Part shown: one piece after another, positions 38,424-55,841 of the stretch
Numbering within the stretch: the stretch's first letter is position 1
Layout of the letters: each line of letters opens with the position of its first letter
DNA from: an uncultured Alphaproteobacteria bacterium
Lineage (GTDB): Bacteria > Pseudomonadota > Alphaproteobacteria > HIMB59 > GCA-002718135
Assembly: GCA_902588745.1 (NCBI GenBank)
Contig: CACIQI010000001.1
Span: forward strand, 13,924 to 77,923
Direction: 5' to 3'
Length of the DNA stretch: 64,000 nucleotides
The notes under the pieces: generated by a model
Seen by the model: only the letters and a program-made list of their open reading frames with translations
Database searches by the model: none
Told to the model about the DNA's origin: nothing
Program-made: the position numbers and the translations under genes

Positions 38424-39624
38424 TGATCAAGTGTAGATTATTTTTTAAGAAATTGTTACCAATAAAAATATTTTTATAATTAACAATACTATACTTGTCA
38501 TAATATTTTACAATATTCCAAAATTCTCTATGATATTCCCTATCTGTTTGGTTATATTCATAGGTAAAATCATTTTTATTACTTCTTAATAGTAATTCAT
38601 TTGCAAAGTTTTTAATTTCTTCAGGAGTATTATTTATACATTCTATATTTAAATTATAAAACTCATTAAAAGTAGTTAAAATATGAAATTTATTTTCAAA
38701 TATTTCGTTTAATGATAGAAATCTATCTTTATCTTTCGAAAAAAATTTTTTAAATATTACACCTCTTTTAAAATTTTGTATCATTATGTTATTATAATAT
38801 GTGGAATTAATTATACCGACTAATTTATTAGATATAACACTAACATTTCCTATTCCTGAATCACTGCCAATATAAAATTTACAATTTGAAAGAAAATATA
38901 AATCAAGAATGTCATCTTTGATTTTTGAAAACGAGTAATCAAATAAATAAGAAAATTTTTTTTTAATTGGAAATTCTTGAATAGAGCCAACTCTAATTAT
39001 ATTTATTTTTTTATTTTTAAAATATTCAATAGTAGGTAAAAAATCGTCAATTGTAAAATTTCTTTGAGTATTATTATTTATGATCTTACTTGATACAAAT
39101 TTAAAATTCTTTTTCATAAATGCACTATCTCTATTATGAATACAAATCCAGTTACTGTAATTAAAATTTATTTTTTTTAAAAGAAAATCTAATTTAAATT
39201 TGGATTTAGTATCAAATTTTATAAAATTTTTATTTAATAATAAATGAGACTCTTTTTCTAATGAGTATAATTTAAGAATATGTCGGCTATCTTTATTAAT
39301 AAGTTTAAATGAACTAATTATAATATCTGAAAATATAGGTAAATTAACTATTAAAAATTTTGTTTTCCAAATTTTTATTAATTCTTTATTAGAGACATTA
39401 AAATTTGAGTAAAATAAAATGTCAAATGTTTTGTTATATTTATTAATTTGTTTTTTTTCATAAAAAATTGCAGTATCTAATGCCAAATGACCTATTCTTT
39501 TATATTCAAGAATACCAAATCTTATAAATAAAAAAGGTCTAAACAAAATTACAAATAAAATAAAAGGTAGAAGCAAAATTGATGATAAAAATAGAAAAAT
39601 ATTATAAATTTTTTTTAAAAACAT
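38416..39624 (-). CDS. uncharacterised protein, putative glycosyltransferase (paralog of 25926-27470)
   Basis: 402 aa with an N-terminal TM segment and the C-terminal motifs shared with the 514-aa ORF (WICIHNRD, IIRVGS, DLYFLSNCKFYIGSDSG). Confidence 0.4.
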   Translation of the reverse strand: MFLKKIYNIFLFLSSILLLPFILFVILFRPFLFIRFGILEYKRIGHLALDTAIFYEKKQINKYNKTFDILFYSNFNVSNKELIKIWKTKFLIVNLPIFSDIIISSFKLINKDSRHILKLYSLEKESHLLLNKNFIKFDTKSKFKLDFLLKKINFNYSNWICIHNRDSAFMKKNFKFVSSKIINNNTQRNFTIDDFLPTIEYFKNKKINIIRVGSIQEFPIKKKFSYLFDYSFSKIKDDILDLYFLSNCKFYIGSDSGIGNVSVISNKLVGIINSTYYNNIMIQNFKRGVIFKKFFSKDKDRFLSLNEIFENKFHILTTFNEFYNLNIECINNTPEEIKNFANELLLRSNKNDFTYEYNQTDREYHREFWNIVKYYDKYSIVNYKNIFIGNNFLKNNLHLINA

Positions 39625-40500: not shown

Positions 40501-41351
40501 TTTTCTATTTTTACTGGATTACTTGTATGCCTATCTTTATTATGGTCACTTTCTGGGCTATACAAACCAATCCACCATCTGCCACTTAAGTCTTGATCAT
40601 TATAATTATTACATGAATTGTCTACAGTAACACTATCAACACCATGTTTCATAGTTGCATAGAATATTCCTACGTCACCAGCGTTAATTTTGTTTTCACA
40701 ATTAATTTTATTCTCATTTTTATCTACAAAATAAGTACCCCCATTGGTAAAATCCTGATTTTGTTCTGACATATATATAGAAATAATTAATCTTTGATTA
40801 ATTGGATGATGTTGATGTGGTTCAATAAAACCTGTTTTATTTGGATATCTAACAATTTGAATTCTATCTACAATTTTATCTTTGGGTGTATTGTTTTTAA
40901 ATGTATCAAAATCTAATCCACCTAAAAATTTGATTGACGACCAATAAGGATCAAATTTACTAAATAAAGAAAAATCATCATCATTCCAACGAAAAAAATA
41001 AAACGAATGTCTTATGGCATTAATTGAATATTTGTTGAGAGTTGACTCATCTTGAATTCTATGAAAATTTGGACATCCCTCTTTCATTTTATGAAAACTA
41101 CTCTTCGTATTTTTTGAATATTCAGTTAATTGTAATTTTAAATTATCGATAAAATATTGATTGAAACAATTTTTGATTAAAATAAAATTACCTTCGTAAA
41201 GATTATCAATCAATTTATACATTTCGTTAAAATTTTTTTTATCAAAAATATTTAAAAATTCTTGAGAATCAATATTTGATATATCTCTAAAATAATTTGG
41301 ATAATTTTTTGAATTTTCTATTTTTTTCCAGTACTCATCTATACTTATCAT
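40497..41351 (-). CDS. hypothetical protein, possible metal-dependent dioxygenase/cupin-like
   Basis: 284 aa with a His-rich segment IEPHQHHP followed ~45 aa later by MKHGVD. It is coupled by 4-nt overlaps on both sides. The fold assignment is speculative. Confidence 0.3.
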   Translation of the reverse strand: MISIDEYWKKIENSKNYPNYFRDISNIDSQEFLNIFDKKNFNEMYKLIDNLYEGNFILIKNCFNQYFIDNLKLQLTEYSKNTKSSFHKMKEGCPNFHRIQDESTLNKYSINAIRHSFYFFRWNDDDFSLFSKFDPYWSSIKFLGGLDFDTFKNNTPKDKIVDRIQIVRYPNKTGFIEPHQHHPINQRLIISIYMSEQNQDFTNGGTYFVDKNENKINCENKINAGDVGIFYATMKHGVDSVTVDNSCNNYNDQDLSGRWWIGLYSPESDHNKDRHTSNPVKIEN

Positions 41352-42025
41352 TTTGATACTAAGGCCAATGTTTTTGAATTAGTGAAATAATAATCACTAT
41401 TATATCTAGTATGCTTTAGAACTTCAAGCCATTCATTTTCTAAAAGTATTGTAGATCCTAATAACGTCCAATTTTTAAACATCCAATATTCTTTAGGTGT
41501 GCTATATGAAGCTAAATTAATGAAACTTTTATTATTACTTACTCTAACAATTTCTTTTAGAGATCTAATAGCATCTCTAAGATTTAATGAGTAAACAACT
41601 CCTATCGCAATAACAAAGTCAAAATAAGAATCCTGATAGTTTATTTCAGTAAATGATCCAATTTTAATATTTTTTTTAATTGATTTCATAGAATTATTAA
41701 CTGCGTAATTTGAAACTTCTATCCCATAAACTTCAGAATTAGGATAAAGTAACTTTATATCATGGAGAAGAAAACCTTTTTCACATCCTATTTGTAAAAT
41801 TCTGGCATTTTTTTTTAATTTGTATTTTTTAAAAATCCTTTTTGCAACAGGTATCCATCTTCCATCATATTTAAAGCCCCCATATCCATATTTTCTATTT
41901 CCATCATATAAATTTTTATCTCTATAGGAAGAAATTATTCTTTCTTTAATAGTTCTAGTTTTGGTATTAGCGACTCTTTTAATTTTTGATTTTGGTAAAT
42001 CTTTTAACAAATTGTATTTTCTCAT
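41348..42025 (-). CDS. class I SAM-dependent methyltransferase (paralog of 24117-24767)
   Basis: 225 aa with YGYGGFKYDGRWIPVAKRI and ILQIGCEKGFL. Confidence 0.75.
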   Translation of the reverse strand: MRKYNLLKDLPKSKIKRVANTKTRTIKERIISSYRDKNLYDGNRKYGYGGFKYDGRWIPVAKRIFKKYKLKKNARILQIGCEKGFLLHDIKLLYPNSEVYGIEVSNYAVNNSMKSIKKNIKIGSFTEINYQDSYFDFVIAIGVVYSLNLRDAIRSLKEIVRVSNNKSFINLASYSTPKEYWMFKNWTLLGSTILLENEWLEVLKHTRYNSDYYFTNSKTLALVSK

Positions 42026-42028
42026 TAC

Positions 42029-42685
42029 TCACTTAAATTCTAATAAATTTTGAATAAATAAATCTTGAAAATTATCAATGATAAAATCAGCATCTTTTAA
42101 AATAAATCTATTATTTGTATTTGTAATTGCTATACATCTCATTTTAGCTTTTTTTGCAGATATTATACCCAATGGAGCATTTTCTATAACTAAACAATTA
42201 TCGTAACCAATATTAAGTTTTTTTGAAGCCATTAAAAATGGTTCTGGATGGGGTTTATTATTAGTGACCACATCTCCTGAAATTATAACATCAAATAATT
42301 TAATTAATTTTTTAGGCAGTGAATGATTAACTTGTATTGAGTGACTAGAAGTAACTAATCCTAAATAAAAATTCTTTTCTTTAATTTTAACTAAAGTTTT
42401 TTCTACAAAAGGATATAATTTAATCTTATTAACTTTACTTAGGTAAATTTCTTTTTTTTTTTTAACTATACTTGATACTATTCTTTCATTATATTTTATA
42501 TTATTTTTATCAAAAAAAAATTGAGTTATTTTATCAAGAGACATTCCTTCAAGTGGATAATAATCAGTTTCATTTATATTTATATTGAAATTTTTAAGGA
42601 CTTCCTTCCAAGACAAAAAATGTAGCTTCATACTTTTTATCAAAGTACCATCTAAATCAAAAAGTATTAATCTATTATTTTGCAA
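42029..42685 (-). CDS. HAD-superfamily hydrolase (beta-phosphoglucomutase/phosphatase subfamily IA)
   Basis: 218 aa with LFDLDGTLI, VTSS, NKPHPEPF and a C-terminal acidic motif. Confidence 0.8.
   Translation of the reverse strand: MQNNRLILFDLDGTLIKSMKLHFLSWKEVLKNFNININETDYYPLEGMSLDKITQFFFDKNNIKYNERIVSSIVKKKKEIYLSKVNKIKLYPFVEKTLVKIKEKNFYLGLVTSSHSIQVNHSLPKKLIKLFDVIISGDVVTNNKPHPEPFLMASKKLNIGYDNCLVIENAPLGIISAKKAKMRCIAITNTNNRFILKDADFIIDNFQDLFIQNLLEFK
42452..42463. repeat. 12-nt A/T homopolymer inside the HAD hydrolase coding sequence
   Basis: Read directly: T12 on the plus strand (A12 in the mRNA sense, encoding KKKK). Confidence 0.9.
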
Positions 42686-43199
42686 ATTTTGAAAGAATTA
42701 ATTTCATCCAATCGCCAAGATATTTATAGTGAGGTGAGGTAATAATTTTTTTATCTTCAACAACTGGTCCCTTATAATAATAAGCTCCAGAATTATTTAT
42801 ATCATCTTCAATGCTATAGTACCCAGAAATTTTTGTATTCTTTACTATTTTTGCACTAATTAAAAGTTGAGCTCCATGACATATACTGCCAATATAAATT
42901 TTGTTTTTGTAAAAATCCTTAATTATTGAAAGTGTTTTTTTATCTTGTCTTAAATACTCCATAGCTTTTGCACCACCTGGTAATATTAATAAATCATAAT
43001 TTTTGGTTTTTACTTTACTCATTTTAATTAGTTTATGATCTTTGTTTGGTGGAATTTGCGTACCTAATATACCTTTAACAGGAGCATCACCAAGTAAACA
43101 AACGTCTACTTTAAATTTTTCTTCTAAAAGCCTATAATATGGATATATAAATTCATGATCTTGTACTAAATTTCCTGAAAGCATTAGTGCTTTATTCAT
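42675..43199 (-). CDS. DJ-1/PfpI-family protein
   Basis: 174 aa with EFIYPYYRL, LILPGG and the nucleophile elbow SICHGAQLL. Confidence 0.8.
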   Translation of the reverse strand: MNKALMLSGNLVQDHEFIYPYYRLLEEKFKVDVCLLGDAPVKGILGTQIPPNKDHKLIKMSKVKTKNYDLLILPGGAKAMEYLRQDKKTLSIIKDFYKNKIYIGSICHGAQLLISAKIVKNTKISGYYSIEDDINNSGAYYYKGPVVEDKKIITSPHYKYLGDWMKLILSKFAK

Positions 43200-45009
43200 A
43201 TCTTTTCATATAATTTTTAAAACTTAAATTTTCAATGATTTTTTTATCTATAAATGGATATAAATCCTCATAAGAAGTGTAGATACTTTTACCATCCTTA
43301 TCTCTTCTATTAATCATTTTTGGCTCTTGTGGCTGCTCATCATCCATGATCAATTCACAAATAAAAGGTGATTTTGAATTAATAATTTTTTTTATATATT
43401 TGTTTAAATCTTTGTGGTGTTTTATTTTTAAATAAGAAATCTTATGTGATTTGGCTATTAAAGAGAAGTTTGGAAATGAAAGACCTGATGATGAATTAGA
43501 TCCCATTATTCGACCTTTAAAGCCAAGTTGCTGGGTCTGTTTAATAGTTAAATAACCCTTGTTGTTATAAATAAAAATCTTTATCGGTAATTTATTATGC
43601 ATAACTGTAGCTAGTTCTTGAATATTCATTTGCAAACCGCCATCGCCAGTTACACATATAATGTTATTTTTTGGATTAGCATAATATGCCCCAATTGCTG
43701 CTGGTAGGCCCCAACCCATTGGTGCATGACCTGAGTTTGTATAAATTTTTTGTCCAAGCTTATTTTTAAAAGATTGATATGTGCCAACAAAAGAAAGGCC
43801 CATATCTGTAACAATAGTAGAATTTTTGTTTAATTTTGAACTTAAGACATCAATAAAATAATATGAATTTACATATTTTTTTTGATTGATAATTTTTTTA
43901 TTAAGAATAGGAAATTTTTCTCTTATAAATCTACAATAATTAAGCCAATTTTTATTATAAAAAAACTTTTTATTTATAATTTTATTATGTAAGATTTTAA
44001 AAAATTCGTAAGCATCAGAATTAATTTTTAAATCAAAATTAAGGAAATGGTTTTTTAATTCAAAGCTATCAACATCAATTGAAACTTTTTTTGCATTTCT
44101 TGCAAAGTCTGAAAAGTTATAGCCAGTTACCATATAGGGCAATCTACTACCAACTGATATGAATAAATCACAGTTCTGAACAATAAAATTTGATCCCCTT
44201 TCGGCAAAAGCACCTGGTCTACCAAGATTCATTTTATCTTTTGATTCAAATAGATCTATCGCATTCCAAGAAAGACAATAAGGTATTTTAGTTTTTTTGA
44301 TAATTTTTTTTACTAATAATTGAGAGTTAGATATTCTTACACCTTGACCAAAATAAAATAATGGCCTTTTAGAATTTTCTATCATTTTTAATAACTTGTT
44401 AATTTTCATAGAAATAGAACTATTATTTATTTTTGATAATTTATTTCCTATTGAGATTTTTTTATTTCTTTGGTTTATTTCTGAGTTTTGAATATCAGCA
44501 GGAATATCAATTAAAGCTGGTCCAGGTCTACCATTATTAGTTTCATAATAAGCTTTTTCTAATGTCTCATAAACTTCACTTGGAGAAGTAATCATTTTTG
44601 AATACTTTGTTATTGGTTTAGAAAGAGAAACTATATCTATTTCTTGAACACCTTTTTGTCTAATTTTTAAATTACTTATGGTTTGATTTAAAAATACTTG
44701 TCCAGATAAAACTAACAAAGGCACAGAGTCTATCCAGGCACTAGCAATTCCTGTAAGGGCGTTTGTACCTCCAGGTCCAGTTGTTACTAAAGCACATCCA
44801 GTCATATTTTTTGATCTCGCATAACTCTCAGCAGCAAAAACAGAAGCTTGTTCATGATGATTACAAATATATTTGAGATTAGATCTAAAAAGAGCATCAC
44901 ATAAGAAAATTGACCCACCACCTGAAACAGTAAATACTGTTTTAATTTTTTTTGATTTAAGAAAATCAATTACATAATCAGATACAGTATAACGAGAATT
45001 AGGTTTCAT
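43192..45009 (-). CDS. thiamine-diphosphate-dependent enzyme, acetolactate-synthase-like (intact motifs)
   Basis: 605 aa with the HHEQ catalytic-Glu motif, TTGPGGTN, GRPGP and the ThDP/Mg motif GDGGLQMN...IYNNKGY. Confidence 0.85.
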   Translation of the reverse strand: MKPNSRYTVSDYVIDFLKSKKIKTVFTVSGGGSIFLCDALFRSNLKYICNHHEQASVFAAESYARSKNMTGCALVTTGPGGTNALTGIASAWIDSVPLLVLSGQVFLNQTISNLKIRQKGVQEIDIVSLSKPITKYSKMITSPSEVYETLEKAYYETNNGRPGPALIDIPADIQNSEINQRNKKISIGNKLSKINNSSISMKINKLLKMIENSKRPLFYFGQGVRISNSQLLVKKIIKKTKIPYCLSWNAIDLFESKDKMNLGRPGAFAERGSNFIVQNCDLFISVGSRLPYMVTGYNFSDFARNAKKVSIDVDSFELKNHFLNFDLKINSDAYEFFKILHNKIINKKFFYNKNWLNYCRFIREKFPILNKKIINQKKYVNSYYFIDVLSSKLNKNSTIVTDMGLSFVGTYQSFKNKLGQKIYTNSGHAPMGWGLPAAIGAYYANPKNNIICVTGDGGLQMNIQELATVMHNKLPIKIFIYNNKGYLTIKQTQQLGFKGRIMGSNSSSGLSFPNFSLIAKSHKISYLKIKHHKDLNKYIKKIINSKSPFICELIMDDEQPQEPKMINRRDKDGKSIYTSYEDLYPFIDKKIIENLSFKNYMKRYE

Positions 45010-47575
45010 ATTTAATTTTTTCTATTATCATATTTTTTTCTAAAATACTTTCATTGAAGTATGGATCCATATCTTCTAATGGTCTAGGAATCCACTCATT
45101 TTTGTCATTAATATAAAAACCTTGTTTTGAAATTATATCTTGATCATCTTTAATTTTGACAGCTAATATTGATGAAGTTTTCTCGCTTAAGAATTGTTTT
45201 AATGTTTTTAAATAATTTTTTTTATTTGTTATTTTAAAAACTTTTAGACCAAAGTAATTACAAATTTTAAATAATGAGTTAAAATTATATTTACTAGAAT
45301 AGTCTGTAGTTACAAACCTTTCACCAAAAAATTTTTTTTGAGATACTTTTAAAATAAAATTATCATCTTTAATCATTAATAAAATTTTTAAATTTATATT
45401 ATATTTTTTTATGAATTCTAAATCATAAATATTTTTTTGAAAACCAGCTATTTCAGTTATGCAAACAATATTTTTATTCTTAATTCCAACACCTAATGAT
45501 AGTGGAATTGCAAATCCTCTTGTTTCAATACCAGGAGAGCAAATTAATCTATGATTTTTTTTATATTTAAATGCTAACGTTGAATAAAGATGAGGGCCAT
45601 AATTATCCGCTATAATTATATAGTCATCTTTTAAATTTTCTGAAAAATCACTAAACAATTTTAATGGAAAAATATCTTTTTTGTTATCTATTATTTTACT
45701 ACCATCAGAATTATAATAATGCAGTCCATTAAAATTTTTTTTCAATCTATTACAATAATTTAACCAATCTTTAATATTATTATTACATTTTATCCTATTT
45801 TTATATTTGATTAAAATTGTTAGATAGGCATTTAAGTCAAAATTAGCCTTATAATGAATTTCAATATTATTTTTTTTTAATTCATTTAAATCAATATCAA
45901 CAGAAAAAATTTTTGCTTTTCTTGCAAAGTTTTTAGTTGCTCTTCCTGTCACAGTTTGACTTAGTCTGCATCCTAGAGAGATTATAAGATCACAATTTTG
46001 AATAATAAAATTTGAGCTCCTTTGACCAAAAGGACCAGGAACGCCATAATTATTTTTATTATAATAATTTAATAAATCAGGAACCTTACTACTAAGTAAA
46101 ATTGGAATATCTAAATTTTTTAAAAAATCATTTAATAATAATTTTGAAGATGATATTTTTATACCATTTCCTAGAATTATAACTGGCTTTTTTGAAATAT
46201 TAATTAATGAGATTAATTTTTTTACAGATGCTATTATTTTTTTATTATCTGACTTTTTTTTCGAAATTTTATAATTCACAAGATTGTTTTCATTAATAAT
46301 CTTTGATTGGATATTAATTGGCACTTCTATTATTGAAGGACCTGGCCTTCCCTCAGATGCAAAATGAAAAGCTTTCATTAAGTCATATTTTATTGATAAT
46401 TCATTGTTAACAATTTTAGTGAACTTAGAAATTTTTTTTATATTATTTGATAATCTAAACTCTTTTATGCCAAATTGTCTTACATTTTTATTTTTTATAA
46501 TTGATTGACCAATAATAAAGACTATTGGGATAGATTCTATCCAGCAATTTAAAATAGATGAAAATACTTCAGCAGATGCGCTTCCAGAAGAAAGTATCAC
46601 TACTGCTGGTTTTTTATGTATTAAAGAATATCCTTCAGCAGCTTTTGATGATGTTGCCGAATTATAACTATAAATTAAATTAATGCTTTCAGATCTTCCT
46701 AGTGAATCTAAAATATGTAAGTTTTGTGATCCTGGGGTAACAAAAATCTCTGTATATTTATTTTTTTCTAAAAACTTTACTAAAAAATCTGAAACTTTAA
46801 TATTACTGCTATTTTTACTAATTAATAAATAATTAAATTCTTTTAAGTTCGATTTATTAATAAAATATTTAAAATCCTTATATGAAAGAAAATTGTTAAA
46901 GTTAAAATTTTTAAAAATTTTATTAATTTTACTAAAATTATTTAGTATCATAAATAAATCATTGTTATTAAAGTTACGATAATTAGAATCATCTTTTTGA
47001 AATTTTTTGAAACTCAGTGTGGTTTCTCCAAAAATCTTTTTAAGATTATTTTCATTTGATGTCTTATTATACGACAGATAATTATAATTATTAGTCTTAT
47101 AAGAATAACTATTATTATTTTCATAACCTTTACCTTTTCTACCGTAACTATCTTTTAATCTAACTAAATCTTGTTTATTTACAGGCGTTTCAATCTCCAA
47201 TAAGTAAGAACCATTATCTGAAATAGATTTAGATCTATGAAAAACTTTTTTATCAATATAGCATCCATTACTAGATTTAATTTTTATTTTTTTTTCAAGA
47301 GTATTGAATAAGATTTCACCAGATAAAACAAATAAAGCAGTAGATTTATTTGGATGACAGTGCAGAGAGGTTTTTTCACCTTTTTTGATATACAAAATAG
47401 TCATTGCAAAATATCTATTAGAAAACAGTAGATATTCATAACCCCATGGTTTTTTTACTACTATTTTTGAGTAATCTTGTTTAGTTTTTTTTATATCTGC
47501 GTAGTTTGTAAAGTTAAGGAGAGTATCAATATCTTTTTTTTTTATAACAAAATTATTAAAATTATTAGTTTGCAT
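44999..47575 (-). CDS. cupin domain fused to a degenerate ThDP-enzyme-like module
   Basis: 858 aa. Residues ~40-135 (KKPWGYEYLL...SLHCHPNKSTALFVLSGE) form a cupin. Residues ~255-858 are colinear with the 605-aa neighbour, but HHEQ is replaced by SYNS and GDG..NN by EIAG..KDDN. Confidence 0.7.
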   Translation of the reverse strand: MQTNNFNNFVIKKKDIDTLLNFTNYADIKKTKQDYSKIVVKKPWGYEYLLFSNRYFAMTILYIKKGEKTSLHCHPNKSTALFVLSGEILFNTLEKKIKIKSSNGCYIDKKVFHRSKSISDNGSYLLEIETPVNKQDLVRLKDSYGRKGKGYENNNSYSYKTNNYNYLSYNKTSNENNLKKIFGETTLSFKKFQKDDSNYRNFNNNDLFMILNNFSKINKIFKNFNFNNFLSYKDFKYFINKSNLKEFNYLLISKNSSNIKVSDFLVKFLEKNKYTEIFVTPGSQNLHILDSLGRSESINLIYSYNSATSSKAAEGYSLIHKKPAVVILSSGSASAEVFSSILNCWIESIPIVFIIGQSIIKNKNVRQFGIKEFRLSNNIKKISKFTKIVNNELSIKYDLMKAFHFASEGRPGPSIIEVPINIQSKIINENNLVNYKISKKKSDNKKIIASVKKLISLINISKKPVIILGNGIKISSSKLLLNDFLKNLDIPILLSSKVPDLLNYYNKNNYGVPGPFGQRSSNFIIQNCDLIISLGCRLSQTVTGRATKNFARKAKIFSVDIDLNELKKNNIEIHYKANFDLNAYLTILIKYKNRIKCNNNIKDWLNYCNRLKKNFNGLHYYNSDGSKIIDNKKDIFPLKLFSDFSENLKDDYIIIADNYGPHLYSTLAFKYKKNHRLICSPGIETRGFAIPLSLGVGIKNKNIVCITEIAGFQKNIYDLEFIKKYNINLKILLMIKDDNFILKVSQKKFFGERFVTTDYSSKYNFNSLFKICNYFGLKVFKITNKKNYLKTLKQFLSEKTSSILAVKIKDDQDIISKQGFYINDKNEWIPRPLEDMDPYFNESILEKNMIIEKIKYET

Positions 47576-47578: not shown

Positions 47579-48700
47579 TTACTGATAGAATTTTTTTATA
47601 CATTCGAACATATAATTAATTTGTTTTTTTGATATAAACTGATGTATTGGTAATGTGATTAAATGTTTAGCTTGATACTCAGCAATAGGAAAATCATTTT
47701 TTTTATAACCATATTTTAAGGAAGCACTCTGAAGATGTAAAGGTTTAGGATAATGAATTTTTGCCTCAATATTTAAATTACTTAGATATTTTAATAATTT
47801 ATTTCTATCTTTTACAAGAACCATATATAATGCAAATGTTTCAATATAACCTTTTGGTCTAGGAGGTACCGATACATTATTTTCTAAACTAGATAGTAAA
47901 CTATCAAAGTATTTTGCATTGATATTTCTCTTATTAATAACTTGGTCTAGTTTTTTTAATTGATTACTGGCAACTACAGCTTGAAGAGGCTGAAGTCTAA
48001 AATTTTCACCATAAAATTCAATATTATCTCTGTTAATCATCCCATGATTTCTGTATTTTTTCATCCAATTATATAATTTATAATTATTAGTAACTACCAT
48101 TCCGCCATCTCCCATCACATTTAAAGACTTTAAGGGATGCATACTGAATGCATTAACTATGCCGAAAGTTCCTGGTTTTTTATTTTTGATTTTAGCACCT
48201 ATGCCCATACACGCATCTTCAACTACATGTATATTATACTTTTTTGCAATCTTAACGATTTTAAACATATTTGGAGAAGCTCCACCCCAATGTACAGGAA
48301 TTATTGCTTTTGTTTTGTTACTTATTTTTTTTTCTATTTGATCTATATCAATTTGATATCTTGAGTCACAATCGATAAAGATAGGTCTTGCACCACAACT
48401 AACAATTGCACCTACTGTAGCATAAAAAGTATTAGTAACTGTAATAACCTCATCACCATTTTTTATTCCTAGAGATTTAAGAGATAAAATTAGAGCATCA
48501 GTTCCATTATTTGTACCAATACAGTATTTAACACCAAGATATTTTGAGAATTGTTTCTCAAAATTCTCCATAAATTTTCCAAGTGTAAAATCAGTAGATA
48601 AAATTAGTTTCTTCCAAGCTTTAAAAATATCTTTAGTATTACTAAATTCAAAAGGTAAATAATTATATGGAACTTTAATCTTCTCAGTCATAAAAATCAT
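47579..48700 (-). CDS. DegT/DnrJ/EryC1/StrS-family sugar aminotransferase
   Basis: 373 aa with the PLP-lysine context FSMHPLKSLNVMGDGG. Confidence 0.85.
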   Translation of the reverse strand: MIFMTEKIKVPYNYLPFEFSNTKDIFKAWKKLILSTDFTLGKFMENFEKQFSKYLGVKYCIGTNNGTDALILSLKSLGIKNGDEVITVTNTFYATVGAIVSCGARPIFIDCDSRYQIDIDQIEKKISNKTKAIIPVHWGGASPNMFKIVKIAKKYNIHVVEDACMGIGAKIKNKKPGTFGIVNAFSMHPLKSLNVMGDGGMVVTNNYKLYNWMKKYRNHGMINRDNIEFYGENFRLQPLQAVVASNQLKKLDQVINKRNINAKYFDSLLSSLENNVSVPPRPKGYIETFALYMVLVKDRNKLLKYLSNLNIEAKIHYPKPLHLQSASLKYGYKKNDFPIAEYQAKHLITLPIHQFISKKQINYMFECIKKFYQ

Positions 48701-49781
48701 TTACACAATCTGATACATATTTAATTTGTTCTTCACTTAAGTATTGATGATGAGGAAATGATAAAACTTTACTAGCTAATCTTTCTGCATTTTTAAAATC
48801 TCCCTTTTTATATCCAATATTTATTGAAGCCTTGTGTAGATGCAAAGGAGTTCCATAATATACTAAAGATTGAATATCTTTAGAAGTTAAATAAGATTGT
48901 AATTTATCCCTCTGATCACATAGAGAAATCATCATTACATATGAATCATGTGTATTCAAGGAATCTTCAGGCAATATAACTTTATCAGTTTTAATATATT
49001 TTTTATATAAGGAGATATTATTTCTTCTTTTATTTATAACTTCTTTCAACCTTGTTAATCTATAAGATAATATCTCAGCATTTAATGAATCTAGTCTAGA
49101 ATTGACTCCAAATATTTTAACATTATCTCTACTTTCCATTCCATGATTTCTAAATAGTTTTATTGAGTTATATAAGTCTTCATTATCAGTAACTACAAAA
49201 CCAGAATCACCAACTGCATTTAAATTTTTCAAAGGGTGTGCTGAAAAAGCGGCAATATCACCAAAAGTTCCTGCATGTTTATTATTATAGTAAGATCCCA
49301 TTCCTTGTGCAGAATCTTCAATTACAAATAAATTATATTTATTTGCAATTTCCATTATTTTTTCCATATTGCAAACTTTACCACTCCAATGAACTGGCAT
49401 AATAGCTTTTGTTCTATCAGTTATTGCTTCTTCAATTAATTCTTCATTTATATTTAAATCATCTTTAACATCTACAAAAACTGTTTTAGCACCTGTATGA
49501 ACTATAGATCCAACAGAAGCAACAAATGATAGAGGAGAAGTAATTACTTCATCTCCTTTTTTAATTCCTAAAGACCATAGAGCCATCATTAAGGCATCTG
49601 TTCCAGAATTCAAACCTAGGCAAAATTTTGAATTTACAAAGTTACAAACATTATTTTCAAAATTTGCAACCTCATCAGTCATAATAAGAGAGCCATTTTT
49701 TAAAACATTATCAAAACATTTTATTAAATGTTCTTTTTCATCTTCATATCTTTTTTTTAAATCGATTAATTCAACTTTCAT
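48684..49781 (-). CDS. DegT/DnrJ/EryC1/StrS-family sugar aminotransferase
   Basis: 365 aa with FSAHPLKNLNAVGDSG. It is a close paralog of 47579-48700. Confidence 0.85.
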   Translation of the reverse strand: MKVELIDLKKRYEDEKEHLIKCFDNVLKNGSLIMTDEVANFENNVCNFVNSKFCLGLNSGTDALMMALWSLGIKKGDEVITSPLSFVASVGSIVHTGAKTVFVDVKDDLNINEELIEEAITDRTKAIMPVHWSGKVCNMEKIMEIANKYNLFVIEDSAQGMGSYYNNKHAGTFGDIAAFSAHPLKNLNAVGDSGFVVTDNEDLYNSIKLFRNHGMESRDNVKIFGVNSRLDSLNAEILSYRLTRLKEVINKRRNNISLYKKYIKTDKVILPEDSLNTHDSYVMMISLCDQRDKLQSYLTSKDIQSLVYYGTPLHLHKASINIGYKKGDFKNAERLASKVLSFPHHQYLSEEQIKYVSDCVNDFYD

Positions 49782-49854
49782 ATTTGGTACTTACAATAAC
49801 ATCTAAATAAATAACTAGCAAATTTTTAAAATAAAAATATACATTTTATAAAAT

Positions 49855-51159
49855 TTAAAGTTTATTTAAATTTATTTTATTACTTCTCAATATACTAAAT
49901 ACTTTTGAAAAACACTTTATATAAGATTCAATTAACTTCTTATCTTCAAAGGTAAAAGTTGGTATCGATATAGTTGAGTCATAAAATTTTTCTGCTTTAG
50001 GTAAATCGCCCTTATAATATAAAACACTATTTTTTGATTTTATTTTTTGTATTTTTTCTAAGTTTTTTGTAGATTTAAACAGATGCAAAAGATGAAGTGG
50101 TTGATGTGAAGCTCTTCTTACTTCCATACCTTCAGCCTGAAGAATTTCAATAAGATCATCTAAATGTATATTGTTTAGAGTGTCCAGTTGCACAAATGGC
50201 CTATATCCAAAGTAGGCCCCTCTATGACATTTATTTCTGGTAATTGGAGGAGATATACCCTTAATATCACTTATTTTTTTTGAAAATTGGTTCAAAATTT
50301 TATTCCTTTTATTAATATATTTTTTTAGATTTTTTAATTCAAAGTTTGCAATAGCTGCAGATACTGGGTGAATACGATGTTTGAAACCAAAACCAGTGAC
50401 CAAGAATTTTTTTAATTCTTTCTGAGTTATTTGTGTGTTAACTCTTTGACTAAAATCACTAATTAAAAGAGCCTTTTGAAAAAAACTTTTTTTGTTTGTT
50501 ATTAAAATACCTCCTTCACCCGAAGGGAGCATTTTCTGATTACCTAAACTAAAGCAGGCAATATCACCGAAGGTGCCTACTAGCTTATTATTATATTTTG
50601 AGCCATGAGCATGAGAGCAATCTTCAATTAATGCAAGATTATATTTTTTTTTAATTTTTAATATTTTTTTCATATCACATGGATGACCACAAAGATGTGT
50701 AATTACTATAGCTTTAGTTTTTGATGTTATTTTACTTTCAATAGAAACAGGATCAATATTACCAGTATCTTCTTCAATATCGCACACTATAGGAATTGCC
50801 TTGAGTTGTTTAAGTGGCGAAGCTGTTGCGTGAAAAGTCAAAGCTGGGACAAGAACTTCATCATACTCTCTAATACCTACAGCAAAGAATGCCGCATGCA
50901 AAGAAGATGTCCCTGAATTAGTTGTAAGAGAATACTTTGAGTTGTGAAATTTAGCAAAAGCCTTTTCAAAATCTTCAACTATTTGAGGATATCCATATCT
51001 ATTATATTTTTCATTTTTATAATAGTTGTTAATAGCCTTATTTTTACCTGAAGATTGTGGGGGCCACTTCCAATGGGGTTGTTTAAAAATAATTGATTTT
51101 TGACCTCCAAATATTGCTAAGTTTTTTATTTCTAATTTTTTATTTTTACTTTTTTTCAT
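49855..51159 (-). CDS. DegT-family PLP enzyme (longer, divergent member)
   Basis: 434 aa with TNSGTSSLHAA and FSLGNQKMLPSGEGG. Confidence 0.8.
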   Translation of the reverse strand: MKKSKNKKLEIKNLAIFGGQKSIIFKQPHWKWPPQSSGKNKAINNYYKNEKYNRYGYPQIVEDFEKAFAKFHNSKYSLTTNSGTSSLHAAFFAVGIREYDEVLVPALTFHATASPLKQLKAIPIVCDIEEDTGNIDPVSIESKITSKTKAIVITHLCGHPCDMKKILKIKKKYNLALIEDCSHAHGSKYNNKLVGTFGDIACFSLGNQKMLPSGEGGILITNKKSFFQKALLISDFSQRVNTQITQKELKKFLVTGFGFKHRIHPVSAAIANFELKNLKKYINKRNKILNQFSKKISDIKGISPPITRNKCHRGAYFGYRPFVQLDTLNNIHLDDLIEILQAEGMEVRRASHQPLHLLHLFKSTKNLEKIQKIKSKNSVLYYKGDLPKAEKFYDSTISIPTFTFEDKKLIESYIKCFSKVFSILRSNKINLNKL

Positions 51160-54126: not shown

Positions 54127-54963
54127 TTAATTTTTATTTATCTGTTTTGAATAAATTTTAATAAAATCATGATATCCATATAAAGAGAGCACTGAAACAG
54201 TATTACTCAAAACTTTATTACTTATTTTTTTGTTCTCTCTTTTATCAATCAAAAAAGTGTAGTTTACAAAAGGATTTAAAGTATTTATATTTTGCTCATT
54301 ATTCATTCCTATCAAAATATATTTTTCTTTTTTCATAAATTCAATGAAATCTACGCTGGTAATTACATTGTCTATAATTTGATAAGTTTGAAGCGTTATA
54401 TTTACTAAGATTGGCTTATAAGAAATAACTAAATTTTTAATTTTATTCTCAAAACCAATTACATTTGACTCAATTACTTCTAATCTATCAGAAAAATTTA
54501 AATTTTGACTAAAGCTATTAAAATTAATATTTAATTTTTTATTGTTTATTTTGGTAAAAAAGTATTTTGAATAATAATACCAGTTGATATTATATAAAGA
54601 AAAAACATTAAAATCCTCAAAATAGTAAATACAATTATGTAAAGAATTTTTATCACTGTCAATTATCTTAGATAATTTATTAATACTTAAATTGATTTTT
54701 TTTTTATGTTTATCTTTAAAGTTAAAATTTGAAGAATTAATTTTATCAAATAAAAATTCTGATATTTGCAAAAATTTAATATTTTTATTTAATAAGGATT
54801 TATATATTTTACTATTACTATCTATTGTTTTATAATTTTTTTTTAAATAGTAAATTTTATGAAGTATTTTTTCACTTTTATAAAAACAACATATTATTTT
54901 TAAAATTATTTTTATTATAATTCTATAAAAAAATAAGGTTATTTTTTTTAAATTACTTTTCAT
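54127..54963 (-). CDS. hypothetical protein
   Basis: I trimmed the track ORF 54127-55044 to the internal ATG at 54961-54963 (MKSNLKK...). The upstream 27 codons (MMSGVQIPPPLP...) read through the tRNA gene at 55009-55085. No motif was recognised. Confidence 0.4.
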   Translation of the reverse strand: MKSNLKKITLFFYRIIIKIILKIICCFYKSEKILHKIYYLKKNYKTIDSNSKIYKSLLNKNIKFLQISEFLFDKINSSNFNFKDKHKKKINLSINKLSKIIDSDKNSLHNCIYYFEDFNVFSLYNINWYYYSKYFFTKINNKKLNINFNSFSQNLNFSDRLEVIESNVIGFENKIKNLVISYKPILVNITLQTYQIIDNVITSVDFIEFMKKEKYILIGMNNEQNINTLNPFVNYTFLIDKRENKKISNKVLSNTVSVLSLYGYHDFIKIYSKQINKN

Positions 54964-55008
54964 TATTCTTATGTATAATAAATTAAAATATTTTGGACCA
55001 TTAATAAT

Positions 55009-55085
55009 TGGTAGCGGAGGAGGGATTTGAACCCCCGACATCACGAATATGAGCCGTGCGCTCTGACCAACTGAGCTACTCCGCC
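55009..55085 (-). tRNA. tRNA with CAU anticodon (elongator Met or lysidine-dependent Ile2; not resolved)
   Basis: The reverse complement reads GGCGGAGTAGCTCAGTTGGTCAGAGCGCACGGCTCATATTCGTGATGTCGGGGGTTCAAATCCCTCCTCCGCTACCA. It forms a 77-nt cloverleaf with the loop CTCATAT and an encoded CCA. Position 1-72 is a G-U wobble. Confidence 0.85.
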
Positions 55086-55433: not shown

Positions 55434-55452
55434 ATCTACTCTATAAATTAAT

Positions 55453-55839: not shown

Positions 55840-55841
55840 TC

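What the first reader, a model, noticed from the sequence alone, without database searches (positions are those of the whole stretch)
44999..47575. Cupin fused to a catalytically degenerate ThDP-enzyme paralog
Seen: the 858-aa ORF has an N-terminal cupin (PWGYEYLL, SLHCHPNK..LFVLSGE, FHRS) and a ~120-aa low-complexity linker. A full-length copy of the three-domain ThDP-enzyme architecture follows, colinear with the neighbouring 605-aa protein. Position by position, the cofactor-activating HHEQ becomes SYNS (Glu to Ser). TTGPGGTN becomes SSGSASAE. The Mg-ThDP motif GDGGLQMN...IYNNKGY becomes EIAGFQKN...MIKDDNF. The gene overlaps the intact paralog by 11 nt. Established: the Glu and the GDG-X-NN motif are essential for ThDP catalysis, and active sites form across dimer interfaces. 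Inference: the ThDP-like part is a pseudoenzyme. It may act as a scaffold, a regulator or a substrate-binding module, tethering a metal-dependent cupin (isomerase, epimerase or dioxygenase) to the active ThDP enzyme. I do not recall such an architecture being described.
Basis: partly seen in the sequence, partly recalled or inferred. Interest (0 to 1): 0.72.

Follow-up and report, generated by a model that had tools for sequence, protein, structure and literature searches.

The report
Cupin fused to dead YerE-like enzyme
A SAR11 sugar-biosynthesis island encodes an apparently functional cupin module fused to a thiamine-enzyme body that has lost its cofactor-binding residues yet is still conserved, always beside a working copy of that enzyme, so it looks like a previously undescribed pseudoenzyme subunit of a pathway that probably builds branched sugars.

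Summary
The 858-aa ORF (44999-47575, minus strand) is real. It carries a cupin module followed by a full three-domain ThDP-enzyme body, and it overlaps an intact 605-aa paralog by 11 nt. The catalytic Glu, the GPGG loop, the xMG motif and the GDG...NN Mg-ThDP motif are all gone.

The "low-complexity linker" is wrong. Residues ~179-255 form a folded subdomain of a ~250-aa module that exists as a free-standing protein in many genomes.

Both ThDP proteins are closest to JanthE, a YerE-type carboligase.

Across 80 related loci:
- 29 of 29 fusions with intact motifs have no second paralog.
- 24 of 24 fusions with degenerate motifs have an intact one, adjacent in 21.

The degenerate fusions form one clade spread over many bacterial and archaeal phyla. 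Against the window's closest ortholog, the dead PYR and PP domains have dN/dS of 0.08-0.10. The clade keeps the middle domain and has fixed new residues in the former active-site pocket. Every invariant cupin residue is present in the window protein. A DJ-1/PfpI gene co-occurs in 60 of 70 classified loci.

Best reading: a cofactor-less structural subunit that couples an active cupin to the live carboligase. Physical association and the cupin's chemistry are untested. I found no literature describing this.

The parts
44999..47575 (-). Whole 858-aa ORF: N-terminal cupin module fused to a cofactor-less YerE-like ThDP-enzyme body
   Evidence: ORF list, Pfam, homologues with the same ~850-aa architecture, full-length AF2 model with pLDDT 85.3 and pTM 0.79.
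47111..47464 (-). Cupin beta-barrel (aa 38-155). It carries the family-invariant residues K42 P43 W44 G45 E47 T69 S70 H72 H74 K77 F112 H113 E127 E129 P131 K134 R139 D142 R146 Y151.
   Evidence: PF01050 scores 26-29 bits against a cut-off of 23.6. AF2 pLDDT is above 90. Foldseek matches metal monocupins, best to the archaeal cupin PMIs 7ZVY/7ZVM at TM 0.82-0.87. The invariants hold across 93 free-standing and 22 fused sequences. dN/dS is 0.033.
47354..47362 (-). H72-C-H74, the HxH of cupin motif 1. With H113 (47237-47239) it forms a candidate 3-His metal or catalytic site.
   Evidence: 100% conserved in fused and free-standing members. A role as metal ligands is inferred from cupin-family knowledge and was not tested.
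47042..47110 (-). Short low-confidence connector (aa 156-178) within the N-terminal module
   Evidence: pLDDT 52-67.
46811..47041 (-). Folded alpha/beta subdomain (aa 179-255) that belongs to the N-terminal module.
   Evidence: Strands and helices are modelled with pLDDT of about 80-92. dN/dS is 0.061. The region is covered by free-standing ~250-aa homologues, HMM positions 1-250.
46286..46810 (-). PYR-like domain (aa 256-430). The cofactor-activating Glu is replaced by Ser306 (46658-46660), GPGGTN by GSASAE, and the Gln of the GVQ motif by Lys371.
   Evidence: TPP_enzyme_N scores 66.6 bits. Alignments. dN/dS is 0.079.
45716..46285 (-). Middle domain (aa 431-620), the FAD/nucleotide-binding domain in JanthE and AHAS. 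Conserved positions are almost fully retained. R545 replaces the Tyr that aligns with the JanthE Y297 hotspot.
   Evidence: TPP_enzyme_M scores 82.5 bits, against 86.2 in the intact paralog. The degenerate clade keeps 30 of 33 positions that are conserved in active enzymes. JanthE mapping with PMC12188165.
45131..45715 (-). PP-like domain (aa 621-815). GDG is replaced by E708-I-A710 (45446-45454), NN by I735-K736 (45368-45373), and xMG by TRG.
   Evidence: TPP_enzyme_C scores 41.9 bits, against 121.4 in the paralog. Alignments. dN/dS is 0.095.
43192..45009 (-). Intact 605-aa YerE/JanthE-like ThDP carboligase (HHEQ, GPGGTN, GDGG, NN all present). It is the live partner and overlaps the fusion gene by 11 nt.
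   Evidence: Pfam. Best PDB sequence hit is JanthE 8RPH at E 2.7e-112. It falls in the partner clade in the NJ tree. dN/dS is 0.067.
42675..43199 (-). DJ-1/PfpI-family protein with Cys107-His108 and Glu16. It is the third member of the conserved cassette.
   Evidence: Pfam 134.9 bits. It co-occurs in 21/25, 29/32 and 10/13 loci of the three classes. The catalytic residues are ~100% conserved and the gene is adjacent, with a median gap of 23-31 nt.
41348..42685 (-). HAD hydrolase (42029-42685) and SAM methyltransferase (41348-42025), frequent members of the same operon
   Evidence: Pfam. Co-occurrence: methyltransferase 14/25 and 19/32; HAD 14/25 and only in the degenerate class. Synteny in L082, L083 and the P0003 contig.
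47579..51159 (-). Three DegT/DnrJ/EryC1-family PLP enzymes directly upstream in the same operon
   Evidence: Pfam and NCBIfam. The same three precede the fusion on the P0003 contig.

Best explanation
The 858-aa protein has two halves with different fates.

**N-terminal module (about 255 aa).** It consists of a PMI-like metal cupin plus a small alpha/beta subdomain and is most likely an active enzyme. I infer a sugar or keto-sugar isomerase or epimerase, or some other step that feeds or processes the substrate of the carboligase.

**C-terminal part (about 600 aa).** This is a YerE/JanthE-type ThDP carboligase body that can no longer bind or activate ThDP-Mg. It is kept as a folded, cofactor-less structural subunit.

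**How it probably works.** The live 605-aa YerE-like paralog encoded immediately downstream does the ThDP chemistry, adding an acyl branch to an NDP-keto-sugar. The dead body probably keeps the family's oligomerisation surfaces and its middle domain. That would let it assemble with the live paralog and hold the cupin next to the carboligase. The pathway makes a C-branched sugar for a SAR11 surface glycan.

In the window protein both the PYR-domain Glu and the PP-domain motifs are gone. A mixed dimer through the canonical catalytic interface would therefore have no live site, so the likely assembly is a tetramer of a live homodimer and a dead homodimer.

**Shown:**
- loss of the motifs;
- retention of the fold;
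- purifying selection;
- strict co-occurrence with a live paralog;
- conservation of the cupin residues;
- YerE-like affinity;
- the glycan-island context.

**Inferred:**
- physical association with the partner;
- the stoichiometry;
- the cupin's reaction;
- the identity of the sugar.
For: **Motif loss and fold**
- Motif loss is seen.
- Of 125 positions that are at least 90% conserved in 70 active family members, the degenerate clade keeps 79. Losses are 20 of 51 in PYR, 3 of 33 in the middle domain and 23 of 41 in PP, and they hit the HHEQ, GPGxTN, GxQE, xMG, GDG and NN motifs.
- The fold is retained: AF2 pLDDT 85.3 and pTM 0.79, and JanthE 8RPH/8RPJ matches at TM 0.89-0.91 with rmsd 2.6-3.2 A.

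**Not a decaying relic**
- Against the 79%-identical ortholog in L083, dN/dS is 0.079 for PYR, 0.095 for PP and 0.11 overall, compared with 0.067 for the live paralog.
- The clade has fixed new residues in the former pocket. K371 replaces a Gln. R545 replaces a Tyr that aligns with the JanthE Y297 hotspot. E708 replaces the first Gly of GDG. W828 is also clade-specific (PMC12188165).

**Pairing with a live paralog**
- Among loci with at least 2 kb of downstream sequence, 21 of 24 degenerate fusions have an adjacent intact paralog. Two of the other three have an intact one about 3 kb away; L018 shows only a truncated ThDP ORF at the edge of its locus. None of 29 intact fusions has one.
- The gap from the fusion's stop to the partner's start is -26 to +90 nt in 21 of 23 loci.
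- Degenerate fusions and their adjacent partners each form a single clade.

**Coupling of the cupin to the carboligase**
- The same N-terminal module is fused to an active YerE-like body in 32 species, and is a separate ~250-aa ORF directly upstream of one in others.
- The two fused classes probably arose independently.

**Cupin probably active**
- All family invariants are present in the window protein.
- Its dN/dS is 0.033.

**YerE-like affinity and context**
- JanthE is the top PDB sequence hit for both proteins. YerE-like enzymes branch NDP-4-keto-deoxysugars (PMC12247030).
- The window carries SIS, HAD, kinase/nucleotidyltransferase, 4,6-dehydratase/epimerase, DegT and methyltransferase genes.
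- Gene order is syntenic in L082, L083 and the P0003 contig.
Against: - No direct evidence of a complex. Adjacency and gene overlap are also what one expects for any two enzymes of one pathway.
- The live partner keeps every motif, so it could work alone as a homodimer or homotetramer.
- The N-terminal module exists as a free protein in most genomes (104 of the 147 top hits retrieved) and sometimes has no ThDP gene within 10 kb (L077, L078). It therefore does not intrinsically need a ThDP body.
- The cupin's reaction is unknown. Its similarity to PMI cupins is weak: PF01050 is just above its cut-off, and Foldseek hits are generic monocupins at 14-24% identity. The canonical motif-1 Glu is a Thr (T79).
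- The dN/dS estimate rests on one pair with dS of about 1, which is near saturation.
- The motif-versus-partner association reflects one ancient event per clade, so the Fisher p of 6e-12 overstates independence.
- The NJ trees use simple distances and have no support values.
Confidence: 0.55

Rival explanations
1. The dead ThDP-like body has been repurposed as a ligand-binding or regulatory module. It could bind FAD or a nucleotide in the retained middle domain, or an anionic ligand such as an NDP-sugar or a 2-oxo acid in the remodelled pocket. It would then serve the cupin directly, by presenting substrate or by allosteric control, without having to assemble with the 605-aa enzyme.
For: - The middle domain is almost fully conserved, with 30 of 33 positions kept.
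- New clade-specific charged residues line the former cofactor and substrate pocket: K371, R545, E708, and R710 in most members.
- JanthE binds FAD in this domain, and Y268, which helps hold it, is Tyr in 92% of the degenerate clade (PMC12188165).
Against: - The new charged residues could simply form salt bridges that fill the empty cofactor pocket.
- The window protein itself lacks some clade consensus residues: it has F516 rather than Tyr and A710 rather than Arg.
- The middle domain evolves fastest in the closest pair, with dN/dS 0.24.
- No ligand can be assigned from sequence.
- This reading is not exclusive of the scaffold model.
Confidence: 0.25
2. In the degenerate clade generally, the fusion forms a mixed dimer with the partner. 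The fusion's PYR domain, whose Glu is retained in 88% of members, and the partner's PP domain would build one live composite active site. The window protein, which has lost the Glu, would be a further-degenerated derivative.
For: - The PYR Glu is kept in 88% of the clade, while G455 and G457 of GDG, the NN pair and the Met of xMG are lost from the PP domain.
- Some members have near-normal PYR motifs. L012, L014 and L016 keep QTEQ; L011, L015 and L016 have (S/A)SGASGTN, close to JanthE's TTGAGSTN.
- It is established for the ThDP family that active sites are built from the PYR domain of one subunit and the PP domain of the other.
Against: - The partner keeps its own Glu and every other motif, so it does not need complementation.
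- In the window protein, L067, L022 and L055 the Glu is gone, so such a dimer would have no live site.
- The PYR domain of the clade has also lost H52, Q54, the GPG Pro and the GxQE motif.
- No structural test was possible.
Confidence: 0.12
3. The ThDP-like part is a decaying remnant of a duplication, and only the cupin matters.
For: About 37% of the positions conserved in active enzymes have changed. The body evolves faster than the partner: mean within-clade identity is 47% against 56%.
Against: - The full-length ORF is kept in 26 lineages across many phyla.
- dN/dS is 0.08-0.10 in the dead domains.
- The fold prediction is confident.
- The clade has its own conserved residues.
- Free-standing cupin modules are common, so shedding a useless 600-aa tail would be easy.
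Confidence: 0.04
4. The ThDP-like part is still a catalyst that binds ThDP in a non-canonical way.
For: - Single deviations are tolerated elsewhere. JanthE has CDG rather than GDG (PMC12247030).
- Many partners here have GEG.
- Glyoxylate carboligase lacks the Glu (my own knowledge).
Against: In the window protein the Glu, the Asp of GDG, both Asn, the GPG loop and the xMG motif are all missing at once.
Confidence: 0.03

Closest known systems
YerE-like ThDP carboligases (YpYerE, ErwE, JanthE; PDB 8RPH/8RPI/8RPJ)
   Same: - JanthE is the best solved relative of both the 605-aa protein (E 2.7e-112) and the 858-aa protein (E 3e-60; Foldseek TM 0.89-0.91).
- Both share the three-domain PYR/middle/PP body.
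- Both sit in a deoxy-sugar and glycan gene cluster, as YerE-like enzymes do when they add acyl branches to NDP-4-keto-deoxysugars (PMC12247030).
   Different: - The 858-aa body lacks the Glu, GPG, xMG and GDG...NN motifs and carries a 255-aa N-terminal cupin module.
- The YerE-like enzymes in the papers I read are described without any cupin module or dead paralog, and a full-text search for 'YerE' plus 'cupin' found nothing relevant.
- The natural substrates here are unknown.
Acetohydroxyacid synthase (IlvB/IlvG/IlvI catalytic subunit with an ACT-domain regulatory subunit)
   Same: Same superfamily and fold, with an FAD-type middle domain. It is also a precedent for a catalytic ThDP subunit working with a non-catalytic partner subunit.
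   Different: - NCBIfam AHAS models score far below their cut-offs: 383 against 538 for the 605-aa protein and 246 against 538 for the 858-aa protein.
- The AHAS regulatory subunit is an unrelated ACT-domain protein (my own knowledge), not a dead paralog.
- The genomic context here is glycan synthesis, not branched-chain amino acid synthesis.
Cupin domain of type-II GMP/PMI enzymes (PF01050) and archaeal monocupin PMIs (7ZVY, 7ZVM)
   Same: - The only curated sequence similarity is PF01050 at 26-29 bits and the C-terminal end of TIGR01479.
- These give the best structural superpositions, TM 0.82-0.87 and rmsd about 1.5 A.
- The PWGxY and DxYGR sequence blocks are shared (my own reading of the motifs).
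   Different: - Sequence identity is only 16-18%.
- The ligand set differs: HxH...H plus two invariant Glu, with Thr where cupin motif 1 has Glu.
- There is an extra alpha/beta subdomain.
- No nucleotidyltransferase domain is attached.
- PMI activity was not tested.
CapF of Staphylococcus aureus (SDR reductase fused to a metal cupin acting on a UDP-4-keto sugar; PDB 3ST7/3VHR)
   Same: It is a precedent for a metal cupin fused to another enzyme of the same nucleotide-sugar pathway. The CapF cupin appears among the structural matches. CapF's activities are from my own knowledge.
   Different: The fusion partner is an SDR and is active, not a dead ThDP enzyme. The cupin lies at the C-terminus. 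There is no sequence relationship beyond the fold.
Pseudoenzyme paralogs paired with active paralogs (general concept; within the ThDP family, transketolase-like TKTL1 is a debated case, from my own knowledge)
   Same: Catalytic residues are lost while the fold is retained, the protein is under purifying selection, and it co-occurs with a live paralog.
   Different: To my knowledge and from the literature searches, no dead paralog in the decarboxylase/AHAS-type ThDP family has been described, and none that carries another enzyme module.

Membership tests
ThDP-dependent enzymes, decarboxylase/AHAS-type (catalytically competent member) | Three-domain PYR / middle / PP architecture and fold | tested here: met
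   TPP_enzyme_N, M and C are all above their gathering cut-offs. The AF2 model matches JanthE and AHAS structures at TM 0.82-0.91.
ThDP-dependent enzymes, decarboxylase/AHAS-type (catalytically competent member) | Conserved Glu in the PYR domain that activates the cofactor's aminopyrimidine | tested here: not met
   Ser306 aligns with Glu53 of the paralog and Glu54 of the JanthE chain. The Glu is kept in 88% of the degenerate clade but not in the window protein.
ThDP-dependent enzymes, decarboxylase/AHAS-type (catalytically competent member) | GDG-X(24-27)-NN motif that binds Mg2+ and the diphosphate | tested here: not met
   E708-I-A710 and I735-K736 replace GDG and NN. The xMG motif (TRG in the window protein) and GPGxTN (GSASAE) are also lost.
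ThDP-dependent enzymes, decarboxylase/AHAS-type (catalytically competent member) | Binds ThDP and catalyses decarboxylation or carboligation | not testable with these tools
   Needs purified protein.
YerE-like ketone-accepting carboligases (applies to the 605-aa partner, and by descent to the 858-aa body) | Closer to characterised YerE-like enzymes than to AHAS or other decarboxylase-type ThDP enzymes | tested here: met
   JanthE scores E 2.7e-112 (605-aa) and 3e-60 (858-aa), against plant AHAS at about 2e-73 and 7e-41. The second-best hit, 5AHK from Pseudomonas protegens, is to my recollection PpYerE; I could not verify this. A comparison with YpYerE itself was not possible.
YerE-like ketone-accepting carboligases (applies to the 605-aa partner, and by descent to the 858-aa body) | Encoded in a nucleotide-sugar cluster that can supply an NDP-4-keto-deoxysugar acceptor | tested here: met
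   SIS, HAD, kinase/nucleotidyltransferase, GDP-mannose-dehydratase-type and RmlD-type genes lie in the same strand-continuous island. The clusters in L081 and L082 are similar.
YerE-like ketone-accepting carboligases (applies to the 605-aa partner, and by descent to the 858-aa body) | Couples a 2-oxo-acid donor to a ketone acceptor to give a tertiary alcohol | not testable with these tools
   Needs an enzyme assay. The donor and acceptor are unknown.
Cupin superfamily, PMI-like (PF01050) metal cupin | Double-stranded beta-helix (cupin) fold | tested here: met
   AF2 pLDDT is above 90 for aa 39-130. 732 Foldseek matches have E <= 1e-3, and the top 50 listed are all cupins.
Cupin superfamily, PMI-like (PF01050) metal cupin | Score above the curated family threshold | tested here: inconclusive
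   PF01050 scores 26.1-29.0 against a cut-off of 23.6, so it only just passes. Cupin_2 scores 20.9-23.2 against 27.2 and fails. TIGR01479 scores 30.8 against 373 because only its C-terminal end matches. The free-standing relatives sit on either side of these thresholds.
Cupin superfamily, PMI-like (PF01050) metal cupin | Metal-ligand set of cupin motifs 1 and 2 (HxH...E ... H) | tested here: inconclusive
   H72, H74 and H113 are invariant, but the motif-1 Glu position is the invariant T79. E127 and E129 are invariant elsewhere in the barrel. No model coordinates were available to check the geometry.
Cupin superfamily, PMI-like (PF01050) metal cupin | Mannose-6-phosphate isomerase activity | not testable with these tools
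   Needs an assay. I do not file the module as a PMI.
Pseudoenzyme subunit paired with an active paralog | Catalytic or cofactor residues lost while the fold is retained | tested here: met
Pseudoenzyme subunit paired with an active paralog | Purifying selection on the dead domains | tested here: met
   dN/dS is 0.079 for PYR and 0.095 for PP, from one pair with dS of about 1. The clade is conserved across phyla and has its own invariant residues.
Pseudoenzyme subunit paired with an active paralog | Consistent co-occurrence with a live paralog | tested here: met
   24 of 24 degenerate-fusion loci with enough flank carry a ThDP paralog: intact in 23 (adjacent in 21), a truncated ORF at the locus edge in L018. 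None of 29 intact-fusion loci does.
Pseudoenzyme subunit paired with an active paralog | Physical or functional interaction with the live paralog | not testable with these tools
   No multimer prediction was available. Only gene adjacency and overlap were seen.

The most novel reading that the evidence does not exclude
The cupin-plus-dead-YerE protein and the live YerE-like paralog form an obligate hetero-oligomer. The pseudoenzyme half uses the family's own oligomer interfaces to dock an active cupin, and possibly the conserved DJ-1/PfpI protein, onto the carboligase. The result would be a channelled 'isomerise, then C-branch' machine. In Glu-retaining clade members the mixed dimer might even use a composite active site, with the PYR domain from the dead subunit and the PP domain from the live one. 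This would be the first ThDP-family pseudoenzyme subunit. It would come with a natural series for study: unfused genes, an active fusion, and a dead fusion with a live partner.
Probability: 0.3. Interest if true: 0.75.

Novelty: new variant of a known kind. Interest (0 to 1): 0.62.

Why it matters
- **For ThDP enzymology.** It would add a well-supported pseudoenzyme to the decarboxylase/AHAS-type family. Nature has also supplied the controls. The same cupin module is found free, fused to a live carboligase, and fused to a dead one that always travels with a live copy. That series makes it directly testable why a cofactor-less body is kept: as a scaffold, for channelling, or for ligand binding.

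- **An uncharacterised cassette.** The cupin module, a YerE-like carboligase and a DJ-1/PfpI protein form a three-gene unit with no curated family for the cupin module and, as far as I could find, no literature. The module has 506 cluster representatives at E <= 1e-30. The cassette occurs from SAR11 to Planctomycetota, candidate-phyla bacteria and DPANN archaea. It probably makes unknown C-branched sugars on cell surfaces.

- **For biocatalysis.** YerE-like enzymes are sought for making chiral tertiary alcohols (PMC12247030), and the fused and partnered variants enlarge that toolbox.

- **For SAR11.** The gene lies in a low-GC glycan island beside the SUF operon, where the fusion has very few close relatives. 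Such regions are thought to shape interactions with phages and grazers.

Tried and rejected
- **Frameshift or assembly artefact: rejected.** An identical protein occurs in another assembly, and about 58 intact fused ORFs occur elsewhere.
- **AHAS (IlvB) identity: rejected.** NCBIfam scores are far below the cut-offs, JanthE is a better match, and the context is glycan synthesis.
- **RfbH/E1-type 3-dehydrase assignment for the 434-aa DegT protein: not supported.** It scores 148 bits against a cut-off of 423. A CDP-3,6-dideoxyhexose route as for yersiniose is therefore not shown.
- **Profile search of the N-terminal module against PDB sequences.** Only weak generic cupin hits appeared, E 1e-3 or worse.
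- **Foldseek of the N-terminal model.** The listed top matches are all generic monocupins. Nothing among them was specific for the alpha/beta subdomain or diagnostic of a reaction.
- **Pfam and NCBIfam on the free-standing modules.** No curated family was found.
- **Literature searches.** I searched for YerE plus cupin, for ThDP pseudoenzymes, for YerE/DJ-1/PfpI/O-antigen, and for SAR11 hypervariable region plus thiamine. Nothing relevant turned up.
- **Metal ligands of the closest structural analogues.** I looked for them in the paper that describes 7ZVY/7ZVM, but it is about pressure adaptation, so I did not pursue it.
- **5AHK as PpYerE.** I could not verify this in the library.
- **A linear evolutionary series (unfused, then active fusion, then dead fusion): not supported.** The cupin modules of the degenerate fusions resemble free-standing modules more than those of the intact fusions, 38% against 32% identity. 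The two fusions are probably independent.
- **Not attempted.** A mirror-tree co-evolution test was considered and dropped, because shared operon history would confound it.

Full report
**1. The observation**

The window contains an 858-aa ORF at 44999..47575 on the minus strand and a 605-aa ORF at 43192..45009. They overlap by 11 nt.

Pfam places TPP_enzyme_N, M and C on aa 260-804 of the long protein, all above their gathering cut-offs. It also places the MannoseP_isomer cupin on aa 38-142, just above its cut-off at 26.1 against 23.6 bits.

BLASTP of the two proteins gives 30% identity, E 5e-77, colinear over about 600 residues. In that alignment, and in two MAFFT alignments:
- HHEQ aligns with YNSA, so Glu becomes Ser306.
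- TTGPGGTN aligns with SSGSASAE.
- GDGGLQMN aligns with EIAGFQKN.
- The NN pair aligns with I735-K736.

Two of the quoted strings are one residue out of register.

The one part of the description that fails is the "~120-aa low-complexity linker". AlphaFold2 models aa 179-254 as a folded alpha/beta subdomain. Its dN/dS is 0.06. The whole first ~255 aa is homologous to free-standing ~250-aa proteins.

**2. The fusion is real and common**

A word-indexed search found about 32 clusters of ~850-aa proteins with the same architecture, at 27-79% identity, plus an identical copy in another assembly.

A scan of one genome per GTDB species with the pattern [KR]KPWGYEY found 111 relatives, of which 80 loci were fetched. 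They come from SAR202, Binatia, Nitrospirales, Acidobacteria, SAR324, Elusimicrobia, Omnitrophota, Planctomycetota, Verrucomicrobiota, candidate-phyla bacteria and DPANN archaea. All are MAGs or SAGs.

The window itself is from a Pelagibacteraceae (SAR11) genome: its SufB is 99% identical to proteins so named. The fusion gene has only two close relatives there. This fits a strain-variable island whose GC content is 19-26%, against 30% at the flanking SUF operon.

**3. Three classes and a strict rule**

I extracted every ThDP-type ORF from the 80 loci and read the motif columns against the 605-aa protein. The loci fall into three classes:

| Class | Loci | ThDP motifs in the fusion | Second AHAS-type ORF |
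|---|---|---|---|
| i. Intact fusion | 32 | HHEQ, GPGGTN, GDGGLQMN, NN all intact | none in the flanks |
| ii. Degenerate fusion | 25, plus the window | PP-domain motifs lost (typically GDG to EDR, NN lost, GPGG to GAAA) | intact ~600-aa paralog present in all but the contig-truncated L013 and L018 |
| iii. Unfused | 13 | not applicable | the ~250-aa cupin module is a separate ORF, usually directly upstream of an intact ~600-aa enzyme |

Among loci with at least 2 kb of downstream sequence:
- 21 of 24 class-ii fusions have the paralog immediately downstream. Two of the other three have an intact one about 3 kb away; L018 shows only a truncated ThDP ORF at the edge of its locus.
- None of 29 class-i fusions has a second paralog.

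In simple NJ trees the degenerate bodies form one clade (26 members), their adjacent partners another (21), and the intact fusions a third, tight one (32). The rule therefore reflects one old event that has been maintained through wide dispersal. It is not many independent events, and the Fisher p of 6e-12 should be read with that in mind.

The cupin modules of class ii resemble free-standing modules more than those of class i, at 38% against 32% identity. The cupin module has thus probably been fused to a YerE-like body twice. That is itself an argument that the two activities benefit from being physically coupled.

**4. The dead body is maintained, not decaying**

Against the 79%-identical ortholog in L083, Nei-Gojobori dN/dS values are:

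| Region | dN/dS |
|---|---|
| Whole fusion gene | 0.11 |
| Cupin | 0.033 |
| Subdomain (aa 156-255) | 0.061 |
| PYR-like domain | 0.079 |
| Middle domain | 0.24 |
| PP-like domain | 0.095 |
| Live 605-aa paralog | 0.067 |
| DJ-1/PfpI | 0.026 |

dS is about 1, so these ratios are approximate.

The full-length model is confident, with pLDDT 85.3 and pTM 0.79. It superposes on JanthE at TM 0.89-0.91.

Of 125 positions that are at least 90% conserved in 70 active family members, the degenerate clade keeps 79. The 46 losses break down as 20 of 51 in PYR, 3 of 33 in the middle domain and 23 of 41 in PP. They hit the HHEQ, GPGxTN, GxQE, xMG, GDG and NN motifs.

The clade has also fixed residues of its own:
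- K371, where active enzymes have Gln.
- R545, where 86% of active enzymes have Tyr. This position aligns with the JanthE Y297 active-site hotspot.
- E708, in place of the first Gly of GDG.
- W828 and G751.

These come and from PMC12188165. The window protein has these clade markers but has gone further than most members by also losing the PYR Glu, which 88% of the clade retains.

**5. What the live enzyme is**

The best solved relative of both proteins is JanthE (8RPH/8RPI/8RPJ), well ahead of the AHAS structures. NCBIfam AHAS models score far below their cut-offs.

JanthE is a YerE-like enzyme that binds ThDP and FAD. YerE-like enzymes couple 2-oxo acids to ketones, and physiologically they add acyl branches to NDP-4-keto-deoxysugars, as in yersiniose and erwiniose. 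JanthE's own motif is CDG, so single deviations from GDG are tolerated (PMC12247030, PMC12188165). Many partners in class ii have GEG.

The window is one long minus-strand glycan island. It carries:
- SIS, HAD and kinase/nucleotidyltransferase genes, an NDP-heptose-type set;
- two dehydratase/epimerase genes, a TAL/FSA aldolase, UDP-sugar dehydrogenases and RmlD-like reductases;
- methyltransferases and three DegT enzymes next to the fusion;
- further along, a NeuB module and a split transketolase.

L082, L083 and the P0003 contig are syntenic with the window over ten or more genes.

**6. The cupin module**

In 93 free-standing and 22 fused sequences, the following are invariant or nearly so, and all are present in the window protein: K42 P43 W44 G45 E47, T69 S70 H72 H74 K77, F112 H113, E127 E129, P131 K134 R139 D142 R146 Y151.

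No curated family covers the module. The only consistent hits are PF01050 and the C-terminal end of the GMP/PMI model, both weak. The fold matches small metal cupins. The best superpositions are the archaeal cupin PMIs (TM 0.82-0.87), KdgF and the cupin of CapF.

An exhaustive profile search finds 506 cluster representatives at E <= 1e-30. Of the top 150 hits, sequences were retrieved for 147: 104 are free-standing and 20 are fused.

I infer an active, probably metal-dependent sugar isomerase or epimerase-type enzyme. The reaction is not established.

**7. A third partner**

A DJ-1/PfpI gene lies beside the ThDP or fusion gene in 21/25, 29/32 and 10/13 loci of the three classes. Its Cys107, His108 and Glu16 are ~100% conserved.

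The conserved unit is therefore the cupin module plus the YerE-like carboligase plus DJ-1/PfpI. The role of DJ-1 is unexplained.

**8. Mechanism**

In this enzyme family each active site is built from the PYR domain of one subunit and the PP domain of the other. This is established knowledge.

For the window protein, a mixed dimer with the 605-aa enzyme would pair a PYR domain without Glu with a live PP domain, and a live PYR domain with a dead PP domain. That gives no working site. The live enzyme keeps all its motifs and can form its own dimer.

The most economical model is a hetero-tetramer of a live homodimer and a dead homodimer. The dead body would serve as the docking platform that keeps the cupin next to the carboligase. 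It would replace the covalent coupling seen in class i.

In most other clade members the retained Glu leaves open a composite live site in a mixed dimer. I rate this lower because the partner needs no complementation.

A ligand-binding role for the remodelled pocket or the retained middle domain is a serious alternative, and it is not exclusive of the scaffold model. Residual catalysis and simple decay are both unlikely.

**9. Novelty**

Each ingredient is known: YerE-like carboligases, metal cupins in sugar pathways, and pseudoenzyme paralogs. The combination is not. I found no description of a cupin-YerE fusion, of a dead decarboxylase/AHAS-type ThDP paralog, or of the three-gene cassette. 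I rate it a new variant of a known kind, of solid but not exceptional interest (0.62).

The main gaps are experimental. They are complex formation, cofactor content, the cupin's reaction and the sugar product.

Noticed in passing
window 42675-43199 (-), and 60 of the 70 classified related loci: A DJ-1/PfpI-family gene with fully conserved Cys-His and Glu is the most faithful neighbour of the cupin and YerE-like genes in all three classes. The conserved unit is therefore a three-gene cassette. What a DJ-1/PfpI enzyme does in a sugar-branching pathway is unexplained.
   Followed up: partly
L001-L005, L007-L012, L014, L016, L017, L019, L066, L067 (partner ORFs): Most live partners of the degenerate fusions have GEGG rather than the canonical GDGG in the ThDP-Mg motif, so Glu replaces the Mg-binding Asp. 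The window's partner has GDGG. JanthE is already known to have CDG.
   Followed up: no
window 22398-24115 (-): A split transketolase pair (Transketolase_N at 23306-24115; Transket_pyr plus Transketolase_C at 22398-23309) sits in the same glycan island. It is a second ThDP system of the kind proposed in the literature to branch sugars.
   Followed up: no
window 15670-20635 (-): A nonulosonic-acid module: NeuB synthase (15670-16680), a dehydratase (16775-17806), a DegT aminotransferase (17809-18954), and a 562-aa fusion of a CMP-sugar-type cytidylyltransferase with a GFO/IDH/MocA oxidoreductase (18947-20635).
   Followed up: no
window 7141-9009 and 13835-15667 (-): Two asparagine-synthase-type amidotransferase paralogs (622 and 610 aa) lie within the glycan island.
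   Followed up: no
L012 (Woesearchaeota MAG) and L014 (Nanoarchaeia MAG): The degenerate fusion plus live partner pair is present in DPANN archaeal MAGs as well as in many bacterial phyla. This implies transfer of the cassette between domains, or possibly mis-binning.
   Followed up: no
L081 (intact-fusion class, 156-kb contig): Here the active fusion sits with DJ-1, HAD, SIS and a kinase/nucleotidyltransferase. It also sits with an E1 alpha/beta ThDP pair, an enolase-superfamily (MR_MLE) protein and four radical-SAM proteins. That suggests a more elaborate branched-sugar pathway.
   Followed up: no
window 1-55000 versus 55400-61700: The glycan island has 19-26% GC, against about 30% in the adjacent SUF operon and mnmA. 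SufB has thousands of near-identical relatives while the fusion has two. This pattern fits a strain-variable SAR11 island.
   Followed up: partly
window 38416-39624, 25926-27470, 12726-13838, 9715-10740, 3279-4454, 54127-55044 (all -): Six sizeable ORFs inside the island have no Pfam match. The 402-aa one (38416-39624) has homologues in seven of the related loci.
   Followed up: no
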